A DNA stretch of 64,000 nucleotides, from sequence record NC_052657.1. One strand, given 5' to 3'. Below are positions 8,958-62,382 of this stretch, one piece after another. Each line of letters begins with the position of its first letter. Position 1 is the stretch's first letter. Position numbers and translations under genes: made by a program. This DNA comes from Escherichia phage muut. The notes beneath the pieces were generated by a model. The model made no database searches, had not been told where the DNA came from, and was given only the letters and a program-made list of their open reading frames with translations.

Positions 8958-9388
8958 ATAAATTACTTCAGTGTTACCACAAAGTGACGAACTGCTTTTC
9001 GTGCAGCAGAAGCCAGAGGCTTAGCATACTTAAGTTCATCTTTTTCCATTATAAATTCTCTTTTAAATGAAAATGCAGGACTTATTGGCATTGCCTGCGC
9101 AAGCCCTCAAGGGGAACATAGGTTTTTGTATATTTAACGACCAGGATAACCATAAACCCGTCATCATTCACATTCAAGAGGTACACCATAAAACTGCCGG
9201 GGTCTTAAAACTATAATGATTCGCAAATCATTAATCAGACAGTTCGATGGCTCCTCGATTTTAGCTCACACTAAGGCAGTGAATCTCCAATAAACTAAAA
9301 AATCACTTAAAAAGAACCGCTAGAGTTTGAAGGAGAAAACCATGAGCGAAAAGAGAAATTTTCTCTAGCGATTCCATTTAAATAATCT

Positions 9389-9463
9389 TGGAGCGAGTAA
9401 CAGGACTTGAACCTGCACCTGGAGGGTGGAAACCTCATATGCTACCATTAACACTATACCCGC
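9389..9463 (-). tRNA. tRNA-Gly (anticodon UCC)
   Basis: 75 nt; anticodon loop TTTCCAC, T arm GCAGG-TTCAAGT-CCTGT, acceptor GCGGGTA/TACTCGC with one G-U, CCA. Confidence 0.6.
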
Positions 9464-9518
9464 TTAACAATATTACTCTAACATATTATTAGCCCCTTTG
9501 TCAAGAGGCTTTTAATAT

Positions 9519-9842
9519 TTATTTTAAAATAGTAGATGCACCACGTCTGTTTAGATATGCAACCGTAAAGCTCAAATCACCTATTTCTTCAGGTTCCCAC
9601 TGACCTTCTAAGCCATAACAAGAACAATGATATGCGTGTACTTCATAAAACAAAGATGTTTTCATATCATAGAAATAAACGTGAGATTCGCCTTCATAAT
9701 ATGCACAATCATAAGTGGCAGAAAGAATTACAATGTTATCCTTATCTAACTCTACTTCATAATATCTTTCAACATCTTCAATATCATCAAAACCATCGAA
9801 AACATTGATATTAAAATATTTCTCTAACTCTTTTTCTGTCAC
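9519..9842 (-). CDS. hypothetical protein (about 107 aa) embedded in tRNA array
   Basis: ORF between tRNA-Gly and tRNA-Thr; probable GTG start with AGGGGG RBS. Confidence 0.45.
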   Translation of the reverse strand: MTEKELEKYFNINVFDGFDDIEDVERYYEVELDKDNIVILSATYDCAYYEGESHVYFYDMKTSLFYEVHAYHCSCYGLEGQWEPEEIGDLSFTVAYLNRRGASTILK

Positions 9843-9865
9843 ATACACCCCCTTTAGAGTTAAAT

Positions 9866-9940
9866 TGGTGCTCCCACAAGGACTCGAACCTTGATAAGTT
9901 GCTTACAAGGCAACCGTAATAGCCGTTATACGATAGGAGC
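9866..9940 (-). tRNA. tRNA-Thr (anticodon UGU)
   Basis: 75 nt; anticodon arm GTTGC-CTTGTAA-GCAAC, T arm CAAGG-TTCGAGT-CCTTG, acceptor 7 bp with one G-U, CCA. Confidence 0.65.
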
Positions 9941-10019
9941 AAAATATTTGCTTGGTAGGATTTGATACCTACAATTCTAGAAAATTCTAGAGGTTTCTAT
10001 TAACTCTACAAGCACTATT

Positions 10020-10104
10020 TGGCGATGGATCAAGGATTTGAACCTTGCTAGAACTTTCGTTCACGGATTAACAGTCCGTCGCCCAACCACTAGGCCAATC
10101 CATC
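10020..10104 (-). tRNA. tRNA-Asn (anticodon GUU) with unusually long variable arm
   Basis: Exact acceptor GATGGAT/ATCCATC, CCA, discriminator G; anticodon arm ACGGA-CTGTTAA-TCCGT; 15-nt variable hairpin GAAC-GAAA-GTTC. Confidence 0.5.
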
Positions 10105-10111
10105 TTTAATT

Positions 10112-10198
10112 TGGTGCAGGTAGTTGGACTCGAACCAACGAAGCCCCGAAGGGCAGGAGATTTACAGTCTCCAGCAATTGCCGCTATGCGATACCTAC
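10112..10198 (-). tRNA. tRNA-Tyr (anticodon GUA)
   Basis: 87 nt type II; anticodon arm GGAGA-CTGTAAA-TCTCC, variable hairpin GCCC-TTCG-GGGC, T arm GTTGG-TTCGAGT-CCAAC, CCA. Confidence 0.7.
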
Positions 10199-10203
10199 GT
10201 GTT

Positions 10204-10278
10204 TGGTACATCGTGAAGGATTCGAACCTTCGACCTTGGAGTTAAAAGCCCTTGCTCTACCAACTAAGCTAACGATGT
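10204..10278 (-). tRNA. tRNA-Lys (anticodon UUU)
   Basis: 75 nt; exact acceptor ACATCGT/ACGATGT, D arm GCTT-AGTTGGTA-GAGC, loop CTTTTAA, T arm GAAGG-TTCGAAT-CCTTC; anticodon stem only 3 bp. Confidence 0.6.
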
Positions 10279-10406
10279 ATAAATTATCTTTAAAATAGCC
10301 AGTGTTTGCGGCACTGACTATGAGGTATCGGTAAAATGGCTGCCACCATCTGCCGAAAGTTTACTCTGCTAAAGTAAGTAGCCTCAACGCTACATTAAAG
10401 ATAACT

Positions 10407-10492
10407 TGGCGGTAGATGTAGGACTTGAACCTACACGCCGTTTCCGACGACAGTTTAGCAAACTGTTGTGGCTACCATTTCACCAATCTACC
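10407..10492 (-). tRNA. tRNA-Ser (anticodon GCU)
   Basis: 86 nt type II; exact acceptor GGTAGAT/ATCTACC, anticodon arm ACAGT-TTGCTAA-ACTGT, long variable arm, CCA. Confidence 0.7.
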
Positions 10493-10500
10493 GTTTTTAA

Positions 10501-10653
10501 TTATTCAAAACAACCGGAATCTTTTTGTTCTGCTTTTACCATACGAATATTTTTACCATCTTCAGATTGTTGAAGATTAGAATACTCATAAACAACTTTA
10601 TTATTTACAATCTTAACTCCGGTAACAACCTGTCCAATAGTTTTATAATTCAT
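10501..10653 (-). CDS. hypothetical protein (50 aa)
   Basis: Start moved to internal ATG (AGGAG RBS) because longer track ORF overlaps tRNA-Ser(UGA). Confidence 0.4.
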   Translation of the reverse strand: MNYKTIGQVVTGVKIVNNKVVYEYSNLQQSEDGKNIRMVKAEQKDSGCFE

Positions 10654-10671
10654 AAAGCTCCTAGTTGAATT

Positions 10672-10761
10672 TGGAGGAAGATAATGGAGTCGAACCATCA
10701 CCGTATCACTACAATGGGCCAGGGTTCAAACCTGGTTGCGCACCGCTGCGCCCTACCTTCC
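10672..10761 (-). tRNA. tRNA-Ser (anticodon UGA)
   Basis: 90 nt type II; acceptor GGAAGGT/ATCTTCC with one G-U, anticodon arm CCAGG-TTTGAAC-CCTGG, T arm GATGG-TTCGACT-CCATT, CCA. Confidence 0.65.
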
Positions 10762-10824
10762 CGTTATCATACTTTAAATCTAACATAAAACTATCTTGCT
10801 TGTCAAGCAGTTTTTAAAACTTTT

Positions 10825-10906
10825 TGGCCGGGGTGACAGGATTCGAACCTGCATACTCCAATTACTCGGTTAACGCCTGATTAGAAGTCAGGTGAGATAC
10901 ACCCCG
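10825..10906 (-). tRNA. tRNA-Arg-like (anticodon UCU), non-canonical arm order
   Basis: Exact acceptor CGGGGTG/CACCCCG, CCA, T arm GCAGG-TTCGAAT-CCTGT; UCU hairpin sits right after U8-A9 and a D-loop-like segment follows it. Confidence 0.4.
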
Positions 10907-10978
10907 TTTTCACAGTAACTATAACAAAAAACTAAGTAAATGTCAAGATATTTTTACTAAAAATATTATTTAAATTGA

Positions 10979-11084
10979 AGCCTAGTTATGGAATCGAACC
11001 ATATTTCGTATTTAGTTAGACAAAGCGGTCTAACATATTTTTCAGGCTTTGATGGCCTCGGAATTACCAAATACCCTACTAGGC
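10979..11084 (-). ncRNA. tRNA-like element, about 105 nt, with large insertion
   Basis: Exact acceptor GCCTAGT/ACTAGGC and T arm TATGG-TTCGATT-CCATA, no CCA; inner hairpins AGGC-CATCAAA-GCCT and GTTAGAC-CGCTTT-GTCTAAC. Confidence 0.3.
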
Positions 11085-11086
11085 GT

Positions 11087-11171
11087 TGGTGCAAGTGGAG
11101 GGATTCGAACCCTCAAGCATTTAAGCGTTGCGTTTTAAGCACAATGTGTATCACCAATTCCACCACACTTG
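11087..11171 (-). tRNA. tRNA-Leu (anticodon UAA)
   Basis: 85 nt type II; exact acceptor GCAAGTG/CACTTGC, anticodon arm TTGTG-CTTAAAA-CGCAA, T arm GAGGG-TTCGAAT-CCCTC, CCA. Confidence 0.65.
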
Positions 11172-11286
11172 CATATAGGAGATGCATAGCACCTCCTTTT
11201 AAATGGTGGTTCCCCAGGGTTACAATCCCTGCCCTCGACACTTATGAGGTGTGCGCTCTCGTCAGTGAGCTATGGAACCTTGAATA

Positions 11287-11732: not shown

Positions 11733-11954
11733 TTATGTGAAATCTAATTCCTCCTCTGGTGCTGTGTAATTTAGAAGAAGATCAGTTACACTTTGATGTT
11801 GATAAACCCTTTCGGGACTGTCGTCGAATGCCAAACTTGTACAAATCGAGCATAGATCCGACTCTTGAATATTACCATTCCTGTCTCTACGGGAGTGATT
11901 AGTCAAGTGTCTGTTACAGGCTCGGCAACGAAAATAAAAATTATGTTGTTTCAT
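11733..11954 (-). CDS. small Cys-rich protein (73 aa), possible zinc-binding
   Basis: CxxC ... CxxC spacing (CRACN ... CSIC); AAGGA RBS. Confidence 0.45.
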   Translation of the reverse strand: MKQHNFYFRCRACNRHLTNHSRRDRNGNIQESDLCSICTSLAFDDSPERVYQHQSVTDLLLNYTAPEEELDFT

Positions 11955-12025
11955 AAATCCTTCGTGAAGCCCATCCAGGGCAGTTGCAGGCTCTCCTTAC
12001 CTTAATCTTATCACGAAGTTTTTAT

Positions 12026-13759
12026 TTAGTCAACCTGGATGGTTCCCATAGTACGAAGAACCTCTACATCAACACGGTTGCGGATATCAGTAAATGTTTC
12101 ATCACGTCCTTCTACTTGTGGTGTAATAACCGTACCATCTCTGAAGATAACTTGTAACTCATTGTCTTCATCTTGGATATCTTTAAAAGAAAGATTATCC
12201 ACAAGAGAAAGTTTACCATTTGTATCCTTAACAACCTTAATAAAACCTTTTGCAGAGCGTTTACCAGGATCAGTTTTAGGCTCCTTACTTACCAAAATTT
12301 CGTGTTCACCGATGATACTACCTGTTGCTTTAACAGCAAAACCAAAAGTATCTCGTGTATTGAACTGATAAGTATAACTACCAACACCAAATACAATATT
12401 GGAAGCTGCAAAACCTTTCTTCTTCAGTCGGCGTAAGATCTCGTGTTCTCGTTCAACAGTAATAGAATCACCATAAATCATACCGATGTGCTGATCAAGA
12501 ACCTTGTAGCCTTTTCGGTTGATAGTACCACCAAACACTTCCCAAAGGATTTGAATAGAACCTACTGCTTCACAATAAGGAATCTCATAAGTTTCATCAA
12601 TACAATCAGCAACACTGCAATCCTGAAGAACATTGTAATACTTATTAACATCAGCCAAATGAACTACTTCAGTGGCTGTAGCAATACCATTATTTAAAAG
12701 GTCTTCATAGTTATCAAAAGATTCAACATTGTATCCTGCAACAACTTTAACCGGATCTCCTGAGTCTGGACGAATAACAAGACGACCATTTCGTGACATA
12801 ATGGACTCTTTCAATTCTACCAGAATGCGAGTCAAGACAGCCCAGTAATCATAAGAATCTGCTACATATGAACAAAAACCTTCTGGAACAATTTCTTCAA
12901 TATAGCGGCGAAGAAACTCTTTCTCTGCTACATAACGAAGCCCATCAACATCATCTTTAAGATGTGGGAAATGTTTCTTCAGATCTTCAACAATAGCTCC
13001 AATGTTAGTCGTTGCTACTGAATGTTCTGTTGCCGGAATAGAACCTGCAACAAACTGATCATAATCAATACCATAATAATCATGCACAGTTTCAATAGCC
13101 AGAATATTATCTGTTCCTGTGAAAGATGCCAAATGAGCGATACCACTCTTATAACCATCTTCGACATTACTTAAACCACGTAGGCTAAAATCATGACACT
13201 GGAAGTTAACGTGATCAATATTATCACACGTTGCCATCGCATATGCCATAGCAATACGCTTATACTGAAAAGCTGCTGTAGCATTAGTCATTGTCTTCCA
13301 AGTTTCATCTGACAATAGTGTTTCCACATAATTAGTTAACCAAAAGAATTTTTCTAAAGTATTATGCACAGTAAACACAGGAACACCAATAGGACACAAA
13401 ACACCTTCTGGCAGAGATCGAACTTCCAGCGGAAGATAACCTAAATCGTGCAATTCTCCCCAACATTCAGCAGAAGGAGCAGAAGCACCTAATGCATTTT
13501 TAGACATACGATAAAATTTATTTACTGCTGCACTACGAGACATTTTAAAGAAGCTGTCCCACATAGTTACAAGGGCATCGGTGACTGCTCGACGAATACC
13601 TAAAACAATCACACCACGTGCTTCACGATCTGCATAGTGTGCAAAGTTTTTATCATTACGAGGAGTTAAATTAGAGAAAATGAGTTTTGTATTTTGGTTG
13701 TACATCTGCTTGTGACCAGGCTTATACCAATCAGTAGCAAAAGGTGCAAAAATATTCAT
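12026..13759 (-). CDS. nadV: nicotinamide phosphoribosyltransferase-family enzyme (NadV/Nampt-like; possibly Namat of NARP1)
   Basis: 577 aa; resembles NadV/Nampt by eye and co-operonic with a Prs-like gene; family membership inferred, not searched. Confidence 0.65.
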   Translation of the reverse strand: MNIFAPFATDWYKPGHKQMYNQNTKLIFSNLTPRNDKNFAHYADREARGVIVLGIRRAVTDALVTMWDSFFKMSRSAAVNKFYRMSKNALGASAPSAECWGELHDLGYLPLEVRSLPEGVLCPIGVPVFTVHNTLEKFFWLTNYVETLLSDETWKTMTNATAAFQYKRIAMAYAMATCDNIDHVNFQCHDFSLRGLSNVEDGYKSGIAHLASFTGTDNILAIETVHDYYGIDYDQFVAGSIPATEHSVATTNIGAIVEDLKKHFPHLKDDVDGLRYVAEKEFLRRYIEEIVPEGFCSYVADSYDYWAVLTRILVELKESIMSRNGRLVIRPDSGDPVKVVAGYNVESFDNYEDLLNNGIATATEVVHLADVNKYYNVLQDCSVADCIDETYEIPYCEAVGSIQILWEVFGGTINRKGYKVLDQHIGMIYGDSITVEREHEILRRLKKKGFAASNIVFGVGSYTYQFNTRDTFGFAVKATGSIIGEHEILVSKEPKTDPGKRSAKGFIKVVKDTNGKLSLVDNLSFKDIQDEDNELQVIFRDGTVITPQVEGRDETFTDIRNRVDVEVLRTMGTIQVD

Positions 13760-13830
13760 AGTTATGTCTCCTTGTTTGTTAATGTGGGAGTATCTTACTA
13801 GGCATACTCCCTATTATCAACACTTATTAT

Positions 13831-14724
13831 TTAAAAATTCCACACGTATGGAGATACAATTTGTTGTTGCAAATCTGACTGATTCTTAACAAGAACACCG
13901 GAATCTTCTTGGATGTTATCTTCCCACACATTAAGAGAATGAATGCAGTCAAAGTGCTCACTTAACTCTTTAAGACCTTTAGAAAAGATACCGTGTGTAA
14001 CATATAACTCAATCTTACCTGCGTTACGAGCACGTAGCACTTTAGCCAATTCAATAAAAGTTCTACCGCCGTCACAGATATCATCTACGATCATCAGGTT
14101 ACGCTTATTGAAATCCTGTACAGAAATGTCTGTACGAACAATAGCACCTGTCGCAGTATCTCTAACCTTCTCTGCACAGAACACATCTAAAGACATTTTC
14201 TTAGATAATTTAAATATTTTCTTAAGAGCACCACCATCAGGACTAACAAGAGCAAAATTCTCCATACGTAACTTCCACTTTAAAGTTTCGTAAGCAATCT
14301 CTTCTTGAGGTATTACACAGAGTCTGTCAAACACCGCTGGAGTAACATCACTATGTGGATCAGCAACGATAACACGTGAGAAATTTAATGAATTAATTAT
14401 AGAAGCAAATGCTTTAACTCCGAATGCTTCCCCAGGTTCACACACTCTGTCTTGTCGTGCATATGGCACATACAACATGAGCAAATCAACACAATATGGT
14501 TTATGATATAGCATATTGTCCAATGCATTCTTAGTCATAACCAAAGTCATCAAGTCTTTAGCAGATCTTACTTCTAAAGAGAGTAAGATTCTGTCTGTAG
14601 CATGATTGAAACCTGATAGATTCGTATCTAGTTGAACATGTTGTTCTCCACCAGAGAATGTAAAGACTTTAACGTCTACATCAGTAACATAACAGTTAAC
14701 ACCATGTAGAATACTAACTTTCAT
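13831..14724 (-). CDS. ribose-phosphate pyrophosphokinase-family enzyme (Prs-like; possibly Adps of NARP1)
   Basis: 297 aa; PRPP-binding loop MIVDDICDGGRTF typical of Prs / type I phosphoribosyltransferases; directly upstream of nadV-like gene. Confidence 0.6.
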   Translation of the reverse strand: MKVSILHGVNCYVTDVDVKVFTFSGGEQHVQLDTNLSGFNHATDRILLSLEVRSAKDLMTLVMTKNALDNMLYHKPYCVDLLMLYVPYARQDRVCEPGEAFGVKAFASIINSLNFSRVIVADPHSDVTPAVFDRLCVIPQEEIAYETLKWKLRMENFALVSPDGGALKKIFKLSKKMSLDVFCAEKVRDTATGAIVRTDISVQDFNKRNLMIVDDICDGGRTFIELAKVLRARNAGKIELYVTHGIFSKGLKELSEHFDCIHSLNVWEDNIQEDSGVLVKNQSDLQQQIVSPYVWNF

Positions 14725-14763
14725 TGTTTATCTCCTTAGTTAAGTTAGGACTTTATGTTCTCT

Positions 14764-14792
14764 ACTCTACATACAGATAGATCTAAAGTCAA
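14764..14792 (-). promoter_or_regulatory. sigma70-like promoter for prs-nadV operon
   Basis: On minus strand TTGACT-17-TAGAGT about 40 nt upstream of prs-like start. Confidence 0.45.
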
Positions 14793-14970
14793 TAGATATT
14801 TATTATTTAATTAATAATAAAATTAATAAAGAATCTATTGTTAGTATAGAGCATGTATGTTAGTATTATAAACATAACATAGTGCTATATGTAGACTACT
14901 CAGTTGTCTGTTAGATCATGTATCACAGGATTAGATAACACCCCCTCGCTGCGCTCGGCGTTTTTCGGGG

Positions 14971-14994
14971 GTTAGGGTAGCATACTTTTTTGCG
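14971..14994 (+). promoter_or_regulatory. conserved upstream element TTAGGGTAGCAT-N2-TTTTTT-N-CG (copy 1)
   Basis: Near-identical 24-nt motif recurs in opposite orientation at 55907-55930; both precede the first gene of an operon. Confidence 0.35.
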
Positions 14995-15133
14995 TTTGTC
15001 AACACCTTTTTAGATTATTTTTAAGTACAACCTAAACCTCCTAAAAACGATTGTAACGAGTTTTACTGTGAGGTAAGGTGATTGCATATCTTAAAGGCCA
15101 TTAGCTCGTTACAGAGCCGTATAGGAGGGAATA

Positions 15134-16566: not shown

Positions 16567-16760
16567 TGTTTCTTATTTATTCAGGTAAAGCCAAATACAT
16601 GCAAGGTGTAAAGCGTGTAGAAGTAGCAGATACTGTAACTATAGGAAAATCCTTTATTCTTTATTTGTTTTATATCAATGGAGAAAGATTTGCTGTTTCT
16701 AAGAAGTTGGTAGATAATGGTAAAACTTGGAAAGAAGAGAAACAGGAAGGGGGTAGATAG
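16566..16760 (+). CDS. hypothetical protein (64 aa)
   Basis: Track ORF, start overlaps upstream stop. Confidence 0.4.
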   Translation: MFLIYSGKAKYMQGVKRVEVADTVTIGKSFILYLFYINGERFAVSKKLVDNGKTWKEEKQEGGR

Positions 16761-17101
16761 TGGCTAAAATTCTTTGGTTAGACGATTTAAGAGATCCTAA
16801 AGATTATGGTTATGAGGATGCCATTTGGTTAAAATCTTTTGAGGATTGGTTATCTTTTGTTTCAGATGAAGATAATTTCAATAATATCTCAGAGATACAC
16901 TTCGATAATGATCTTGGAGAAGATCAAGAAGGATATCATGCGTTCTTAGACGTAGAATGTATGTTGTACGCGGGTGAATGGGATGCTCTTAAAACTATCT
17001 ATGTTCATACATCAAATCCTTCTGCTGCTGGTAAATATATGTTAGCTAAGGAAAATTTTATTTCATCCTATGGTGTTGAAATTAAACGTGTTAACTATTA
17101 A
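16760..17101 (+). CDS. hypothetical protein (113 aa)
   Basis: Track ORF, start overlaps upstream stop. Confidence 0.45.
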   Translation: MAKILWLDDLRDPKDYGYEDAIWLKSFEDWLSFVSDEDNFNNISEIHFDNDLGEDQEGYHAFLDVECMLYAGEWDALKTIYVHTSNPSAAGKYMLAKENFISSYGVEIKRVNY

Positions 17102-17109
17102 GTAGGTAT

Positions 17110-17259
17110 TATGCATTACTCAGTTTGGTCAGAGCAAGAAGAGGATGAAGGGCGTTTTATCTATAAAGAGGAAGAAAACTGTAACGATATGAGTAATGAT
17201 CTTTTACTTCCTGATTACAGTTTTTTCGCTGATAGACTAAAAGAGTATAGGGAAAATTG
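17110..17259 (+). CDS. hypothetical acidic protein (49 aa)
   Basis: Sub-cutoff ORF filling gap; its stop overlaps next start (TGATG). Confidence 0.3.
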
Positions 17260-17619
17260 ATGTGCGCTACTAATCAACATGATATTTGTTACCAACCTCT
17301 TACCTGGATTGGTGAGGATCACTATGCTCAACGTGTTATAGTCTGCGCTGCGAATAAGTATATTCTCAATAATGGCGAAGAGTTAATTATTCCTTGTGTT
17401 AGACATGCAAATCCTGTACTATCTGCACAACTTAATGTTTTAAAAGATGCAGGATTGATTGATAAACTGTTTTGCTTACCTGATAATCAAGGGTTTATTG
17501 ATCAGTATTATAATTGGTGGAGTCGAAAAGATGCTTATATCATTGCAGATAACGCCAAACAAATTAACTACGAAAGAAATGGTCACAACAGTGAACTATT
17601 CAGCGAGGGATTATACTAA
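17257..17619 (+). CDS. hypothetical protein (120 aa)
   Basis: Track ORF; no motif recognised. Confidence 0.45.
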   Translation: MMCATNQHDICYQPLTWIGEDHYAQRVIVCAANKYILNNGEELIIPCVRHANPVLSAQLNVLKDAGLIDKLFCLPDNQGFIDQYYNWWSRKDAYIIADNAKQINYERNGHNSELFSEGLY

Positions 17620-18170
17620 TGTTTATTACAAGTGATTTGCATTTTATGCACAAACGTATCCGAGAGTTTGCTCCTGAATATCGCCCGTGGGAAGATATGG
17701 AGCATATGACAGAAGCACTGATCGAAGCATGGAATAAATGTGCCACAACACCAGGAGTAAAGATGTACCATCTTGGGGACTTCTGTTTCGGGACTGAAGA
17801 AGATACCCGTAAGATTGCTTCCCGTCTCCAAGGAGATATTACTTACTGTGTTGGGAACCATGATTACAGCAAACACAGAAAAGTGCTTGCAGAGTATGGA
17901 GAAGTTGTGTATTATGACGAAGTGAAATATCAGAAGCTGTTCTTCGTCTTAAGTCATTACCCTATGGCTGCCTGGAATAAACAAGGGCATGGATCAATCA
18001 TGCTACACGGACACTCTCACGGATCATTCCCTGATCATTTATATGGGAAAATGTTGGATGTTGGTTGGGATGCACACGGGAAAATCTTGCATTTTGACGA
18101 AATCATCTCTATTATGGATAAGCGTGATATTATTGTTGTAGATCATCATAAGATAATCAAAGGAGATTAA
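17619..18170 (+). CDS. calcineurin-like metallophosphoesterase (candidate RNA 3-prime/2-prime,3-prime-phosphatase)
   Basis: Motifs SDLHF, LGDFCFG, VGNHD, LHGHSHG; first gene of phosphoesterase-ligase-kinase trio. Confidence 0.65.
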   Translation: MFITSDLHFMHKRIREFAPEYRPWEDMEHMTEALIEAWNKCATTPGVKMYHLGDFCFGTEEDTRKIASRLQGDITYCVGNHDYSKHRKVLAEYGEVVYYDEVKYQKLFFVLSHYPMAAWNKQGHGSIMLHGHSHGSFPDHLYGKMLDVGWDAHGKILHFDEIISIMDKRDIIVVDHHKIIKGD

Positions 18171-18171
18171 G

Positions 18172-19104
18172 GTGGCTAAGTTCAATTGTGATGACCTGAT
18201 TGCAAAAGGTTTAGTGCATAAAAAAGAAGTTAAATCTGGAGAGTATGCTGGTCTTGCTGTACTTAAATACAAAAACAATGTATTCTGGGATAACTTGTGG
18301 AACGTTGACAAACGACTTTTAGATTGTCGTGGGTTGGTTGTTGACTCAGAAGACAATGTTGTTATTTGGCCTTTTACTAAAATCTTTAATCGTTTTGAAA
18401 ATGGTACAGATCTTCCAGCAGACGAAATTGTAGATGCTGTCCGTAAAGTAAACGGTTTTATGGCATCTGTAGGTGTGTACAAAGGGAAACTTGTTGTATC
18501 AACAACAGGGAGCCTAGAATCAGATTTCGCAATTATGGCAAAGAACCGTATTGTTTCCGAGTGTGACGACATAGAGTATTTCATTAAGTGGACAGAAAGT
18601 GCAAAAGCAACTTTTCTTTTTGAAATCTGTGATCCTTCTGATCCACATATTGTCGAAGAAGAACCAGGCGCATACTTAATTGGAGCAAGAATTCAAAATC
18701 TTGATGGGACAAGTTTCATGTTACCTGAAGGTGTTCTTGATGGGATTGCATCTGTTACAAAATTTAAACGTCCTGAAGTTTATCCGATGATTAAATTTTC
18801 AGATGTTGTTGAAATGTCTAAACATTGTAAACACGAAGGGTTTGTTGTTCGTGAAACAAACTATCCGTTTAACTTACTGTTAAAGATTAAGTCACCATAC
18901 TATCTTGCTAAAAAATTCCTTATGCGTGGTGGCAATAAGAAGTGGGATATGATTTGGGACAACCCAAACAATGCTAAACAAATTGTTGACGAAGAATATT
19001 ATACTTTGCTAGAATGGCTTCGAAACAACTTTACTAAGACTCAATGGGCTGCTTTAGATCCACAAGAGCGACGTAAAGAAATAGAAAACTTCTTTGGAGG
19101 CTAA
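18172..19104 (+). CDS. RNA ligase-like nucleotidyltransferase
   Basis: Motif I KVNGF, III FLFEICD, IV EGFVVRE, V LLKIKS; GTG start with AAAGGAG RBS. Confidence 0.55.
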   Translation: MAKFNCDDLIAKGLVHKKEVKSGEYAGLAVLKYKNNVFWDNLWNVDKRLLDCRGLVVDSEDNVVIWPFTKIFNRFENGTDLPADEIVDAVRKVNGFMASVGVYKGKLVVSTTGSLESDFAIMAKNRIVSECDDIEYFIKWTESAKATFLFEICDPSDPHIVEEEPGAYLIGARIQNLDGTSFMLPEGVLDGIASVTKFKRPEVYPMIKFSDVVEMSKHCKHEGFVVRETNYPFNLLLKIKSPYYLAKKFLMRGGNKKWDMIWDNPNNAKQIVDEEYYTLLEWLRNNFTKTQWAALDPQERRKEIENFFGG

Positions 19105-19509
19105 ATGAAACAACTTATCATCTTACGTGGTGTTTCAGGTGCAGGTAAATCTACAGTAGCAGAAATTATTTCTGAAGGTTATTGGCCTATCTGTGAGGCA
19201 GATCAATATCATTACACAGAAAGTGGTGTTTACGATTGGAAGCCAGAGAATGTAGGTAAAGCACACGCATGGTGTCAGAGTATTGTTCGTGATGCTATGG
19301 CATCTAATATTAAAAAGATTATTGTCTCTAACACTTCAACCACAGAGAAAGAACTTAAACCTTATTTAACTCTTGCTGAAGAGTTTGGTTATCAAGTTAT
19401 CTCTTTAGTAGTTGAAAATAGGCACGGTAACGACTCAATTCATGAGGTTCCACAACATATTCGTGATCAGCAAGAGAAACGTCTTCGCAGTTCACTTAAA
19501 CTACAATAA
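19105..19509 (+). CDS. polynucleotide 5-prime-kinase-like P-loop kinase
   Basis: ILRGVSGAGKST P-loop and later segment resembling T4 Pnk kinase domain. Confidence 0.6.
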   Translation: MKQLIILRGVSGAGKSTVAEIISEGYWPICEADQYHYTESGVYDWKPENVGKAHAWCQSIVRDAMASNIKKIIVSNTSTTEKELKPYLTLAEEFGYQVISLVVENRHGNDSIHEVPQHIRDQQEKRLRSSLKLQ

Positions 19510-35401: not shown

Positions 35402-36387
35402 AATACTTAGTAACAGGTGGTTTAGGCTTTATTGGAAGTGCGGTAGTTCGTTTCCTGGCTAAAAACACTAAGAATGATATTTACGTTATAGATAAATGGG
35501 GTTACGCTTCAGACCCTAGAAATTTATCAGAAACACCTAATGTAAAGTTTTGTCGTGTTGACTTGACAAATGCTCAGTTAACTGCTAAGATTGTGGCAGA
35601 TGTTAATCCAGATTATATAATGCATCTTGCAGCAGAAAGTCACGTAGATAATTCAATAGCATCACCGAGTGTTTTTATAAATTCAAATATTGTTGGAACA
35701 TTTAATCTTCTAGAAGCTGTTCGTTTAATGGGAGATAAATCAAATCTTAAAATGTTTCATCATATTTCAACAGATGAAGTGTATGGTGATCTGGAAGAAG
35801 GGGATTATCCGTTTACAGAACAGAATCCTTATAAGCCAAGTAGTCCATATGCTGCATCTAAGGCAGCAAGCGATCATTTGGTAAGAGCGTGGCATCGTAC
35901 TTATGGTATTCCGACAGTTATAACAAATTGTTCAAATAATTTTGGAGCGTATCATCATCCAGAAAAACTAATACCTAAAACGATAACAAATATTTTGATG
36001 CATAAACCAATCCCTGTTTATGGCAATGGTCTTCAAGTAAGAGATTGGTTATACGTTGACGATCACGCAGAAGCATTACACCTAGTAGTAACTAAAGGCA
36101 AATCTGGAGAAACATATAATATTGGGAGCAGAAACCCTAGAACTAATATTGATGTAATCTATATGATTTGTGATTATATGGATGCGGTGTATCCATCTGA
36201 AACAGATGCTTGTAGCCTCATTGAGATGGTTACAGATAGGCCTGGGCATGATTTAAGATATGAAGTGAATCCTTATAAGATTGAAAAGGAATTAGGGTGG
36301 AAAGCTAAAGGCACATTTGAAGAAAAACTTTATTCAACCATTGATTGGTATGTAGATAACAAAGAGTGGTGGGAAAATAAAGTTTAA
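35398..36387 (+). CDS. rmlB: dTDP-glucose 4,6-dehydratase
   Basis: GGLGFIGS Rossmann motif, [10 protein letters not shown] (YxxxK), [22 protein letters not shown]; collinear with E. coli RffG/RmlB. Confidence 0.9.
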
Positions 36388-40902: not shown

Positions 40903-41555
40903 TGACAACAATTATTGCAACACGTAACAAAATTTTGTCTGACGGTAAGGTAACAGTAGGTAGTCGTGTAGACACTTTAAACTTCAAGAAAGTGCGTAAA
41001 ATTGGGGACTACCTTGTTGGTGGTGCAGGACGTCTGTCTTCTATCCTGACTTTCTTTTCTTGGTTTGAACAAAACTTACAATGCCAGGCAGCACAAGAGA
41101 CAATCCCAGGTTTGGTGATCCAGTCAGATCCCGATAAAGAAGATGAAGAGTTTGTGGCATTGGTTGTTCATCCAGACGGTAAAATTTATATGCACGAGGG
41201 TAATAATCCAACGCGAGCATATCCTTTAACTGAAGATTATTATGCTGTTGGTAGTGGGGCAGATTTTGCTTTAGCAGCTTTAGATGCAGGGGCAACTCCA
41301 GAAGAAGCGATGGAAGTTGCAAAACTGCGAGATGCTTTTTCCGGCGGTGAAACTTTTATCGAAGAGATCGAAGAACAACTGGAGTTAACAGCGGAAGATA
41401 TTCTGAACTTCAGCAAGGAGCAACTAATTAGTATGCTGTTGACTGGTGATCCTGATAGCGATGAAGCTGAAAGTATTTTAGCAGAAATGAAAGAATCACA
41501 AGAAAAAGTATTGACAGTCTCTGAAAAACTTGATAAAGTGTCCTCTGATAATTAA
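40902..41555 (+). CDS. HslV-like Ntn-hydrolase peptidase with acidic C-terminal extension
   Basis: N-terminus MTTIIATR (Thr2 nucleophile), KKVRKIGDYLVGGAGR and YAVGSGADFALAALDAG parallel E. coli HslV. Confidence 0.5.
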   Translation: MTTIIATRNKILSDGKVTVGSRVDTLNFKKVRKIGDYLVGGAGRLSSILTFFSWFEQNLQCQAAQETIPGLVIQSDPDKEDEEFVALVVHPDGKIYMHEGNNPTRAYPLTEDYYAVGSGADFALAALDAGATPEEAMEVAKLRDAFSGGETFIEEIEEQLELTAEDILNFSKEQLISMLLTGDPDSDEAESILAEMKESQEKVLTVSEKLDKVSSDN

Positions 41556-56506: not shown

Positions 56507-56556
56507 AAACCCTCCTTATCGTTAGTACACATTGATACTAACAAGAAGTTAAGATC

Positions 56557-56733
56557 GTGTCAACATCTTTGTGTTAATTTTATCCACTGTTCACATTCTT
56601 CTTTTGTGTCGTACTCTACAGGCTTCCCTGTATCATTTCCACAACCATCTCCGAACGTAGCCCACCAGGAGAATAGAAAACAAGTTTCTCTTACTCTCCA
56701 CTTATTGGCATAGGGTACAACATAATAACTCAT
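56557..56733 (-). CDS. hypothetical protein (58 aa)
   Basis: Sub-cutoff ORF with AAGGA RBS; start overlaps upstream stop. Confidence 0.35.
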
Positions 56734-62173: not shown

Positions 62174-62382
62174 TCTTCCTCTCCTTTCAATTTACACTCA
62201 AAGATACCATTCTTAATGTTATCTGTCAAATAAAGGCTATCTTCTATCTCTTCTTTTGTATACACATAAGCCTCCTTTTCCACGTCTGTCAGACCTTGCA
62301 TCGGAGCTAGTAGCCACCAACCCCGCCAGTCAAACATAGGAGACTTATCAGATACACGAAGAATGTATCTGTCATTACACAT
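62170..62382 (-). CDS. hypothetical protein (70 aa)
   Basis: Track ORF. Confidence 0.4.
   Translation of the reverse strand: MCNDRYILRVSDKSPMFDWRGWWLLAPMQGLTDVEKEAYVYTKEEIEDSLYLTDNIKNGIFECKLKGEEE

What the first reader, a model, noticed from the sequence alone, without database searches (positions are those of the whole stretch)
12026..14792. NadV-like plus Prs-like gene pair with its own promoter: candidate NAD+ reconstitution (NARP1-like) counter-defence module
A 577-aa nicotinamide-phosphoribosyltransferase-family protein and a 297-aa PRPP-synthetase-family protein (PRPP loop MIVDDICDGGRTF) are co-transcribed from a TTGACT-17-TAGAGT promoter. This pairing matches the recently described phage NAD+ reconstitution pathway 1, in which a Prs homolog (Adps) phosphorylates ADP-ribose and a Nampt homolog (Namat) rebuilds NAD+, countering NAD+-depleting immunity. 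Sequence alone cannot separate this from canonical Prs plus NadV salvage.
Basis: partly seen in the sequence, partly recalled or inferred. Interest (0 to 1): 0.7.

Follow-up and report, generated by a model that had tools for sequence, protein, structure and literature searches.

The report
Known phage NAD+-rebuilding gene pair (NARP1)

Summary
The window comes from a phi92-like E. coli myophage (Justusliebigvirus, 99% nucleotide identity). Both ORFs are exactly as described: a 297-aa Prs-like protein (13831-14724, minus strand) followed by a 577-aa Nampt-like protein (12026-13759, minus strand).

The NARP1 reading is supported, and sequence alone can separate it from ordinary salvage:
- The Nampt-like protein carries the published Namat signature GSXΦXΦXΦTRD (GSYTYQFNTRD; aromatic Y462 and F466). 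Three true Nampts lack this aromatic pair.
- Its best solved relative is SPβL1 Namat.
- The Prs-like protein clusters with experimentally verified Adps enzymes. On the canonical Prs model it scores 99.8 bits, against 533 for E. coli Prs.
- Its pyrophosphate loop (CDGGRT) is identical to that of Bas63 Adps.
- The 98-99% identical phi92, alia and PaulScherrer proteins are already listed as Adps and Adps-associated Namat in the supplementary tables of the NARP1 discovery paper.

The claimed promoter exists as a string but is a chance-level match. A perfect TTGACA-N14-TGn-TACCCT promoter 210 bp further upstream is the better candidate, because it is conserved across three genera. No terminator follows the pair.

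No macro-domain phosphatase (Adpp) or Nmnat domain was found in the ten neighbouring ORFs scanned. No experiment has been done on this phage. Verdict: already known, low interest.

The parts
13831..14724 (-). adps: ADP-ribose pyrophosphokinase (Prs-like), 297 aa, first gene of the pair
   Evidence: ORF. Pfam, NCBIfam and PHROG hits. 39-41% identical to the verified ICP1 Adps against 24-25% to E. coli Prs. Catalytic equivalents conserved: F23, R90, H124, D163, K186, R188, D214, D215, D218. PP loop CDGGRT identical to Bas63 Adps. AF2 model pLDDT 94.8 with a PRPS fold.
12026..13759 (-). namat: nicotinamide ADP-ribose transferase (Nampt-like), 577 aa, second gene
   Evidence: ORF. Best PDB sequence hit is 9W5X/9W5W, the SPβL1 Namat (398 bits against 169 for human NAMPT). 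Best fold hit is also 9W5X (E 1e-49, TM 0.94 on the target). SCH motif GSYTYQFNTRD at aa 460-470; catalytic H246 and R330 conserved.
14732..14737 (-). AAGGAG ribosome-binding site of adps, 7 nt before the ATG
   Evidence: Read directly from the sequence.
13768..13773 (-). AAGGAG ribosome-binding site of namat, 8 nt before the ATG
   Evidence: Read directly from the sequence.
13777..13822 (-). Stem-loop in the adps-namat spacer (8-bp core GGGAGTAT/ATACTCCC), with no T-run after it
   Evidence: Fold -15.7 kcal/mol, z = -2.33. Not conserved in phage Tr1, which has a different, longer spacer. Function unknown and probably minor.
14764..14792 (-).
   Evidence: Present, 9 of 12 matches, no TG extension. 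Sites at this match level occur at only modestly above shuffle frequency (24 against 15.7 +/- 3.7). Tr1 has TTGACC-17-TAGTAT at roughly the same place, so it may still be real. ESCO13 is not alignable there.
14974..15002 (-). Stronger promoter candidate TTGACA-N14-TGc-TACCCT (distal, 'P1'), which would give a leader of about 240 nt
   Evidence: Zero mismatches to an extended -10 pattern that is enriched in the window (12 against 3.15 +/- 1.73; 0 of 100 shuffles). Core conserved in Tr1 and ESCO13.
14725..14973 (-). Conserved leader or intergenic segment between P1 and the adps start codon
   Evidence: 72% identical to Citrobacter phage Tr1, with perfectly conserved blocks. Fold z = -1.98, marginal. 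No Rfam family matches it.

Best explanation
This is a NARP1 (NAD+ reconstitution pathway 1) module of a phi92-like E. coli phage.

Proposed mechanism. When an NAD+-cleaving defence (SIR2-HerA/Nezha, DSR, type I Thoeris, SEFIR and similar) splits NAD+ into ADP-ribose and nicotinamide, the first enzyme, Adps, uses ATP to pyrophosphorylate the free ribose 1''-OH of ADP-ribose, giving ADPR-PP. The second enzyme, Namat, then joins nicotinamide to ADPR-PP and releases pyrophosphate. NAD+ is regenerated directly, without NMN and without host NadR or PncC.

Shown here: gene order, family membership, the substrate-selectivity signature, and the prior listing of the orthologues.

Inferred by homology to the Bas63, SPβL1 and ICP1 enzymes: the chemistry and the counter-defence effect in this phage.

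Likely transcription: from a host sigma-70-type promoter in the divergent intergenic region, as the first genes of a leftward unit that continues into small ORFs and the tRNA cluster.
For: - The window is 99% identical to phi92-like phages.
- phi92 FR775895_00103 is listed as an Adps homologue with 'Namat within 10 genes = Yes'. FR775895_00104, and the alia and PaulScherrer proteins, are listed as 'Adps-associated' in the discovery paper's supplementary tables.
- The Namat SCH motif with both aromatic positions is present. It is absent from three genuine Nampts and kept in 117 of the 120 closest homologues.
- The best sequence and fold match in the PDB is the SPβL1 Namat.
- Adps nests with ICP1 Adps, away from E. 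coli and human PRPS.
- On PRK01259 the window protein scores 99.8 bits and verified Adps proteins 74-101 bits, against 533 for E. coli Prs; the cut-off is 297.
- Catalytic and ADPR-contact residues are conserved, and the PP loop is identical to that of Bas63 Adps, whose operon was shown in vivo to counter SIR2-HerA.
- Adps-then-Namat order with a short spacer is the same as in Bas63, ICP1 and SPβL1.
Against: - No experiment exists for phi92-like phages in the papers searched.
- ICP1 residues F92 and F223 are not conserved here (C95 and E225), although they are not conserved in Bas63 or SPβL1 either.
- The selectivity-clamp loop differs from described cases. The sequence is K37-N38-F39, so the fourth residue, which stacks in Bas63 (W43), is Asn; the stacking residue would have to be F39.
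- Namat here carries two insertions (about aa 251-278 and 343-399) that are absent from the solved SPβL1 structure. Bas63 has them too.
- Namat enzymes keep some PRPP-dependent NMN synthesis in vitro, so a side role in ordinary salvage is not excluded.
- The 'loss of the C-terminal alpha11-alpha12 module' criterion could not be settled, because the model has one C-terminal helix, aa 282-295.
Confidence: 0.9

Rival explanations
1. Ordinary salvage. The pair is a canonical PRPP synthetase plus a nicotinamide phosphoribosyltransferase (NadV) that make NMN, and host NadR or PncC would finish the route to NAD+.
For: General family models call the proteins ribose-phosphate diphosphokinase and nicotinate/nicotinamide phosphoribosyltransferase, and GenBank records annotate them that way. 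NF006629 does not separate Namat from Nampt. Namat retains NMN-forming activity in vitro.
Against: The Prs-like protein scores a third of the cut-off on the Prs models, in the same range as verified Adps proteins. SPβL1 Adps gave no PRPP-synthetase product, and Bas63 still overcame SIR2-HerA in a pncC nadR double mutant. The aromatic clamp residues that define ADPR-PP selectivity are present. In the discovery paper's survey, 97% of Adps-clade genes had a Namat homologue nearby, while bacterial prs genes only very rarely did.
Confidence: 0.04
2. Same chemistry, different purpose. The enzymes rebuild NAD+ from ADPR and nicotinamide mainly to sustain phage metabolism or to recycle ADPR made by housekeeping or phage NAD+-consuming enzymes, rather than as a dedicated counter-defence.
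For: Adps-like and NARP1-like genes also sit in non-mobile regions of bacterial chromosomes. Chromosomal homologues at about 45% identity were seen here, for example in Geminocystis and Thorsellia. The genes appear to be expressed with the tRNA cluster in what looks like a general leftward unit.
Against: In Bas63 the ADPR-PP intermediate appeared only when a NAD+-cleaving defence was present, and deletion mattered only on the defence host. The module is an accessory cassette that is missing from the same syntenic site in the sister genus Phapecoctavirus, as expected for a conditionally useful counter-defence gene set.
Confidence: 0.06

Closest known systems
NARP1 of Escherichia phage Bas63 (JohannRWettstein, genes 79-80), the in vivo reference system (bioRxiv 10.1101/2024.02.11.579819)
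   Same: Same host species and the same adps-then-namat order with a short spacer. The Adps PP loop DDICDGGRTF is identical. The Namat SCH motif is of the same type (GSYTYQ[F/Y]xTRD). Namat is the long form, with both insertions.
   Different: Only 30-34% (Adps) and 43% (Namat) identical. Bas63 is a Felixounavirus, whereas this phage is a Justusliebigvirus. The clamp loop here is KNF rather than KWF. The second Namat insertion is shorter here.
Adps of Vibrio phage ICP1 (UniProt F1D1Q1; structures and kinetics in PMC13586617)
   Same: It is the closest verified Adps (39-41% identity) and the sister branch in the NJ tree. The equivalents of F18, R87, H121, D161, K185, D212, D213 and D216 are all conserved.
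   Different: The PP loop is CDGAAS in ICP1 and CDGGRT here. F92 and F223 are not conserved. The window protein has 17 more residues, including a longer C-terminal helix.
Namat of Bacillus phage SPβL1 (PDB 9W5X and 9W5W; PMC12774641)
   Same: It is the best sequence and fold match in the PDB. The catalytic His and R306 (R330 here) are conserved, as are aromatic clamp positions F392 and Y396 (Y462 and F466 here).
   Different: The window protein is 86 aa longer because of two insertions. The clamp-loop Arg40 is Lys37 here.
NARP2 (Nampt plus Nmnat, Vibrio phage KVP40 type) and bacterial NadV (H. ducreyi, PDB 9KE8)
   Same: Same Nampt fold and catalytic core. Both hit NF006629 above its cut-off.
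   Different: They lack the aromatic pair in the clamp helix (GGGLLQ... and GAQTYQR...). They are partnered with Nmnat, not with an Adps. They use PRPP.
NARP1-AP (NARP1 with the macro-domain ADPR-1''-phosphate phosphatase Adpp; bioRxiv 10.64898/2026.01.28.702374)
   Same: The core Adps and Namat genes.
   Different: No macro-domain gene was found among the neighbouring ORFs scanned. By inference from that paper, this module should not rescue NAD+ after aRES-type cleavage.

Membership tests
NARP1 (Adps + Namat) | A Prs-like gene and a Nampt-like gene within 10 genes of each other (the criterion of the discovery paper), typically adjacent in one operon | tested here: met
   The genes are adjacent on the same strand with a 71-nt spacer and no terminator-like site between them. 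The order is the same as in Bas63, ICP1 and SPβL1.
NARP1 (Adps + Namat) | The Prs-like protein belongs to the Adps clade, separate from cellular Prs | tested here: met
PRK01259 gives 99.8 bits against 533 for E. coli Prs and 74-101 for verified Adps. The phi92 orthologue is listed in Supplementary Table 1 of the discovery paper.
NARP1 (Adps + Namat) | Adps catalytic and ADPR-contact residues (ICP1 numbering F18, R87, H121, D161, K185, D212, D213, D216) | tested here: met
   All are conserved: F23, R90, H124, D163, K186, D214, D215, D218 (residue roles).
NARP1 (Adps + Namat) | Adps lacks the C-terminal alpha11-alpha12 filament module of PRPS | tested here: inconclusive
   The protein is 297 aa against 315 for E. 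coli Prs, and its C-terminus has no sequence similarity to the PRPS tail. However, the AF2 model has one C-terminal helix, aa 282-295, and Foldseek aligns about 294 columns to PRPS. No solved Adps structure is in the PDB copy for comparison.
NARP1 (Adps + Namat) | [quoted passage not shown] | tested here: met
   The window has GSYTYQFNTRD (Y462, F466). The pair is absent from the D480 and Matisse Nampts and from H. ducreyi NadV. It is present in 117 of 120 close homologues.
NARP1 (Adps + Namat) | Namat selectivity-clamp loop supplies a stacking residue (third residue Arg, or Lys/Tyr followed by a stacking fourth residue) | tested here: inconclusive
   The third residue is Lys37, as in Bas63 and ICP1. 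The fourth is Asn38, not aromatic, and a conserved Phe39 follows. The pattern xDK[N/L/Y]F is typical of this subfamily. Whether F39 stacks on adenine needs a ligand-bound model.
NARP1 (Adps + Namat) | Enzymatic conversion of ADPR + ATP to ADPR-PP and of ADPR-PP + nicotinamide to NAD+, and rescue from NAD+-depleting defence | not testable with these tools
   Shown for Bas63 (in vivo), SPβL1 and ICP1 (in vitro). No data were found for phi92-like phages.
Canonical PRPP synthetase (Prs) | Score above the curated cut-off of NCBIfam Prs models | tested here: not met
   The best full-length Prs model (PRK01259) gives 99.8 bits against a cut-off of 297, and all equivalog models fail. Only the broad TIGR01251 subfamily model is barely passed (119 against 113). 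E. coli Prs scores 533 on PRK01259.
NARP2 (Nampt + Nmnat) | Nampt of the Nmnat-associated clade, with an Nmnat gene in the phage | tested here: not met
   The protein is 32% identical to Nmnat-associated Nampts against 41-44% to Namats, and it has the Namat motif. The orthologues are labelled 'Adps-associated'. No Nmnat domain was found in the 10 neighbouring ORFs scanned. The rest of the window was not scanned for Nmnat.
NARP1-AP | Macro-domain ADPR-1''-P phosphatase (Adpp) in or next to the operon | tested here: not met
   No Macro domain was found in the ten neighbouring ORFs scanned, which lie between 9.5 and 19.5 kb of the window.

The most novel reading that the evidence does not exclude
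The long-form Namat found in large enterobacterial myophages has two confidently folded insertions. One is a helical extension at about aa 251-278. The other is a small alpha/beta subdomain at about aa 343-399, next to the RPDSGD active-site strand. It also has a variant clamp loop (K-N-F). These features could give it a property that the solved short-form SPβL1 enzyme lacks, such as docking to Adps for channelling of the labile ADPR-PP, regulation, or a shifted substrate range. Separately, the conserved leader of about 240 nt downstream of the P1 promoter could be a regulatory RNA element.
Probability: 0.1. Interest if true: 0.4.

Novelty: already known. Interest (0 to 1): 0.15.

Why it matters
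NARP1 lets a phage undo NAD+ depletion by many unrelated defence systems with only two enzymes. Knowing which therapeutic or model phages carry it helps predict host range on strains with SIR2, TIR or DSR defences.

For this window, the value is confirmatory. It shows that public annotation (ribose-phosphate pyrophosphokinase and nicotinamide phosphoribosyltransferase) hides a known counter-defence module, and that a short motif plus sub-threshold Prs scores are enough to re-annotate it.

The absence of an Adpp phosphatase predicts sensitivity to aRES-type defence, which is a testable practical point for phi92-like phages. The comparison with ESCO13 shows that the module behaves as an accessory cassette at a fixed hotspot behind a conserved promoter.

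Tried and rejected
1. Rejected as unsupported: the match is at chance level, and a better conserved promoter lies upstream.
2. The 73-aa zinc-ribbon ORF just downstream (11733-11954) as a third NARP1 component. Rejected: it is 74% conserved in Tr1, but in ESCO13 it sits at the same site without Adps or Namat.
3. NF006629 or Pfam as a way to tell Namat from Nampt. Useless: both types score alike.
4. A search for solved Adps structures. None is in the PDB copy; only PRPS enzymes appear.
5. Phylogenetic footprinting of the promoter within phi92-like phages. Uninformative, because the region is 95-99% identical in all of them.
6. Rfam on the whole window. Only tRNAs were found, and nothing in the leader.
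7. The adps-namat spacer hairpin as a conserved element. It is not conserved in Tr1.
8. Guessing BASEL accession numbers cost three extra look-ups before Bas63 was found.
9. The annotation of phage 'cardinal' was fetched for context but is almost entirely 'hypothetical protein'.
Full report
**Observation.** ORF 13831..14724(-) encodes 297 aa and ORF 12026..13759(-) encodes 577 aa. Each is preceded by AAGGAG 7-8 nt before the ATG. The 297-aa protein matches the phosphoribosyl-transferase and PRPP-synthetase domains, TIGR01251 and phrog_619. The 577-aa protein matches PF04095, NF006629 and phrog_448. The window is 99% identical over this stretch to phi92-like E. coli myophages (arall, Eryne, alia, phi92; genus Justusliebigvirus).

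**The promoter claim.** TTGACT-17-TAGAGT exists at 14792..14764(-). It matches only 9 of 12 positions, and 24 such sites occur in 4.4 kb against 15.7 +/- 3.7 in shuffles, so this one match carries no weight on its own.

The gene pair begins at a divergent intergenic region (14725-15133), so a leftward promoter must lie there. The best candidate is a perfect TTGACA-N14-TGc-TACCCT extended -10 promoter at 15002..14974(-). That pattern is clearly enriched in the window: 12 sites with at most one mismatch against 3.15 +/- 1.73 expected, reached by 0 of 100 shuffles. Its core AAGTATGCTACCCTA is invariant in Citrobacter phage Tr1 and in Escherichia phage ESCO13, which represent other lineages of the same subfamily.

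No terminator-like site follows the Nampt-like gene on the minus strand. Three small ORFs and 15 tRNA genes continue on the same strand, with another TG-extended promoter-like site overlapping the stop codon (12033..12005). The pair is therefore better described as the first two genes of a longer leftward unit than as a self-contained operon.

**What it is.** NARP1 was described in phage Bas63. Deleting genes 79-80 made the phage sensitive to SIR2-HerA, ADPR-PP appeared only in infected defence-carrying cells, and the effect did not need host PncC or NadR. The SPβL1 homologues made ADPR-PP from ADPR + ATP, and NAD+ from ADPR-PP + nicotinamide. I fetched the reference genes from Bas63, SPβL1 and ICP1, E. 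coli prs, and two Nmnat-associated phage Nampts.

**Nampt-like protein.**
- It is 41-44% identical to the three Namats and 32% to the two Nmnat-associated Nampts.
- Its best PDB sequence matches are 9W5X and 9W5W (398 bits). These are the SPβL1 Namat structures. Next come H. ducreyi NadV at 340 bits and human NAMPT at 169 bits.
- An AlphaFold2 model (pLDDT 91.3) gives the same order by fold: 9W5X at E 1e-49 and TM 0.94 on the target, then HdNadV, then NAMPT.
- Overall similarity does not separate Namat sharply from NadV, so the deciding test is the published selectivity determinant. [quoted passage not shown]
- The window has GSYTYQFNTRD (Y462, F466). Bas63, ICP1 and SPβL1 have the same type. 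The Nmnat-associated Nampts have GGGLLQ.. and HdNadV has GAQTYQRNTRD.
- 117 of the 120 closest database homologues keep the motif.
- The catalytic His (H246) and the Arg of RPDSGD (R330, equivalent to SPβL1 R306) are invariant.

**Prs-like protein.**
- It is 39-41% identical to ICP1 Adps, which was shown biochemically to make ADPR-PP. It is 30-34% identical to Bas63 Adps, 28-31% to SPβL1 Adps and 24-25% to E. coli Prs.
- In an NJ tree with eight further Adps homologues from the discovery paper's table, it sits beside ICP1 Adps inside the phage group. E. coli and human PRPS fall outside.
- On NCBI's Prs model PRK01259 (cut-off 297 bits), E. coli Prs scores 533, the three verified Adps proteins score 74-101, and the window protein scores 99.8.
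- All residues that PMC13586617 assigns to ADPR or catalysis are conserved: F18, R87, H121, D161, K185, D212, D213, D216 in ICP1 numbering. The PP loop CDGGRT is identical to that of Bas63.
- ICP1 F92 and F223 are not conserved, but they are not conserved in Bas63 or SPβL1 either.
- The AF2 model (pLDDT 94.8) has the PRPS fold (TM about 0.73) and one C-terminal helix. The 'loss of alpha11-alpha12' criterion could therefore not be settled.

**Prior knowledge.** The discovery paper's Supplementary Table 1 lists phi92 FR775895_00103 (one residue different from the window protein in the part shown) as an Adps-family protein with a Namat within 10 genes. Supplementary Table 2 lists the phi92, alia and PaulScherrer (BASEL Bas60) Nampt-like proteins as 'Adps-associated'. 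The module is therefore already catalogued. I found no paper that tests it experimentally in a phi92-like phage.

**Variants and context.**
- A Pfam scan of ten neighbouring ORFs found no Macro domain (Adpp) and no Nmnat. This is plain NARP1, not NARP1-AP or NARP2. By inference, it should fail against aRES, which leaves ADPR-1''-phosphate.
- In the sister genus Phapecoctavirus (ESCO13), the same neighbourhood is present without Adps or Namat: RNA ligase, phosphoesterase, divergent region with the conserved P1 core, zinc-ribbon ORF, tRNAs, spanin and terminase. A 61-aa ORF takes their place. NARP1 is thus an accessory cassette at a fixed hotspot.
- In Citrobacter phage Tr1 the Namat gene is 885 aa because an element of about 300 aa lies exactly inside RPD|SGD. 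It begins with Cys, and ...VCGN precedes Ser, which is intein-like.

**Differences from characterised members.** The window Namat is a long form, with two insertions relative to SPβL1 and ICP1 (about aa 251-278 and 343-399). Both are modelled with high confidence, the second as a small alpha/beta subdomain. Bas63 shares them, so they are compatible with function in vivo. The clamp loop reads K37-N38-F39, whereas in Bas63 the fourth residue (W) stacks. The pattern xDK[N/L/Y]F is conserved in this subfamily. These are the only features that leave room for something new.

**Verdict.** The finding is a known system in a phage lineage where it had already been listed. Interest is low.

Noticed in passing
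window 16760-19509 (+): An RNA-repair-like gene cluster lies about 2 kb from the NARP1 pair and next to the tRNA array. It comprises a cyclic-phosphate-processing receiver domain protein (PF20274, E 2e-14), a metallophosphoesterase (phrog_547), a T4 Rnl1-type RNA ligase (PF09511, E 2e-14) and a small AAA_33/polynucleotide-kinase-like ATPase. It is possibly a tRNA-repair counter-measure to anticodon nucleases.
   Followed up: partly
window 14725-15002 (-): A conserved extended -10 promoter (TTGACA-N14-TGc-TACCCT) is followed by a leader of about 240 nt. The leader has blocks that are invariant across Justusliebigvirus, Citrobacter phage Tr1 and Phapecoctavirus ESCO13, for example CGAGCGCAGCGAG and, between the window and Tr1, GATCTAACAGAC.ACTGAGT.GTCTA. 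No Rfam family matches and the fold z-score is -1.98.
   Followed up: partly
whole window, e.g. 10946..10918(-), 35563..35591(+), 41511..41539(+), 56563..56535(-), 62229..62201(-): The pattern TTGACA-N14-TGnTAnnnT occurs 12 times (at most one mismatch) against 3.15 +/- 1.73 expected. These sites are probably the phage's host-RNA-polymerase promoters.
   Followed up: no
L012 (Citrobacter phage Tr1) 6438-9095: The Namat gene is 885 aa. An insertion of about 300 aa splits the active-site motif RPD|SGD. It starts with Cys and ends ...VCGN before Ser, which looks like an intein. Pfam found no domain in the insert.
   Followed up: partly
L013 (Escherichia phage ESCO13) 3765-4720: This locus has the same synteny and the same conserved promoter core as the window, but no Adps or Namat. 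A 61-aa ORF sits there instead. NARP1 is therefore an accessory cassette at this site. I did not check whether ESCO13 carries NARP1 elsewhere in its genome.
   Followed up: partly
window 11733-11954 (-): A 73-aa Cys4 zinc-ribbon protein (phrog_37033) lies directly downstream of Namat. It is 74% identical in Tr1, is present in 133 phage records, and is often left unannotated. It occurs without NARP1 in ESCO13, so it is not part of the module.
   Followed up: yes
window 8242-11279 (-): ARAGORN finds 15 tRNA genes. Rfam adds one at 10828-10906 that ARAGORN does not call. Rfam does not report ARAGORN's tRNA-Ser 10672-10761 or tRNA-Met 11204-11279 at its gathering score.
   Followed up: no
L006 (phi92) 6992-7142, equivalent to window ~13017-13167: The phi92 record annotates a 151-nt 'hypothetical tRNA' inside the Namat coding sequence. 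Neither ARAGORN nor Rfam finds anything there in the window, so it is probably an annotation artefact.
   Followed up: partly
public records MG065689, MG065645, MG065656: Records named 'Campylobacter phage' (A110a, A145, C3) are 97-99% identical to E. coli phi92-like phages across this region. This suggests mislabelled hosts or contaminating phages in those deposits.
   Followed up: no
proteins P0061, P0062, P0088, P0104: Adps-like proteins at about 43-45% identity are encoded on bacterial chromosomes (Geminocystis spp., Thorsellia anophelis). This agrees with reports of bacterial NARP1 homologues. I did not examine their context.
   Followed up: no
window 13777-13822 (-): There is a stem-loop with a perfect 8-bp core in the adps-namat spacer (-15.7 kcal/mol, z = -2.33). 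No T-run follows it, and it is not conserved in Tr1.
   Followed up: yes
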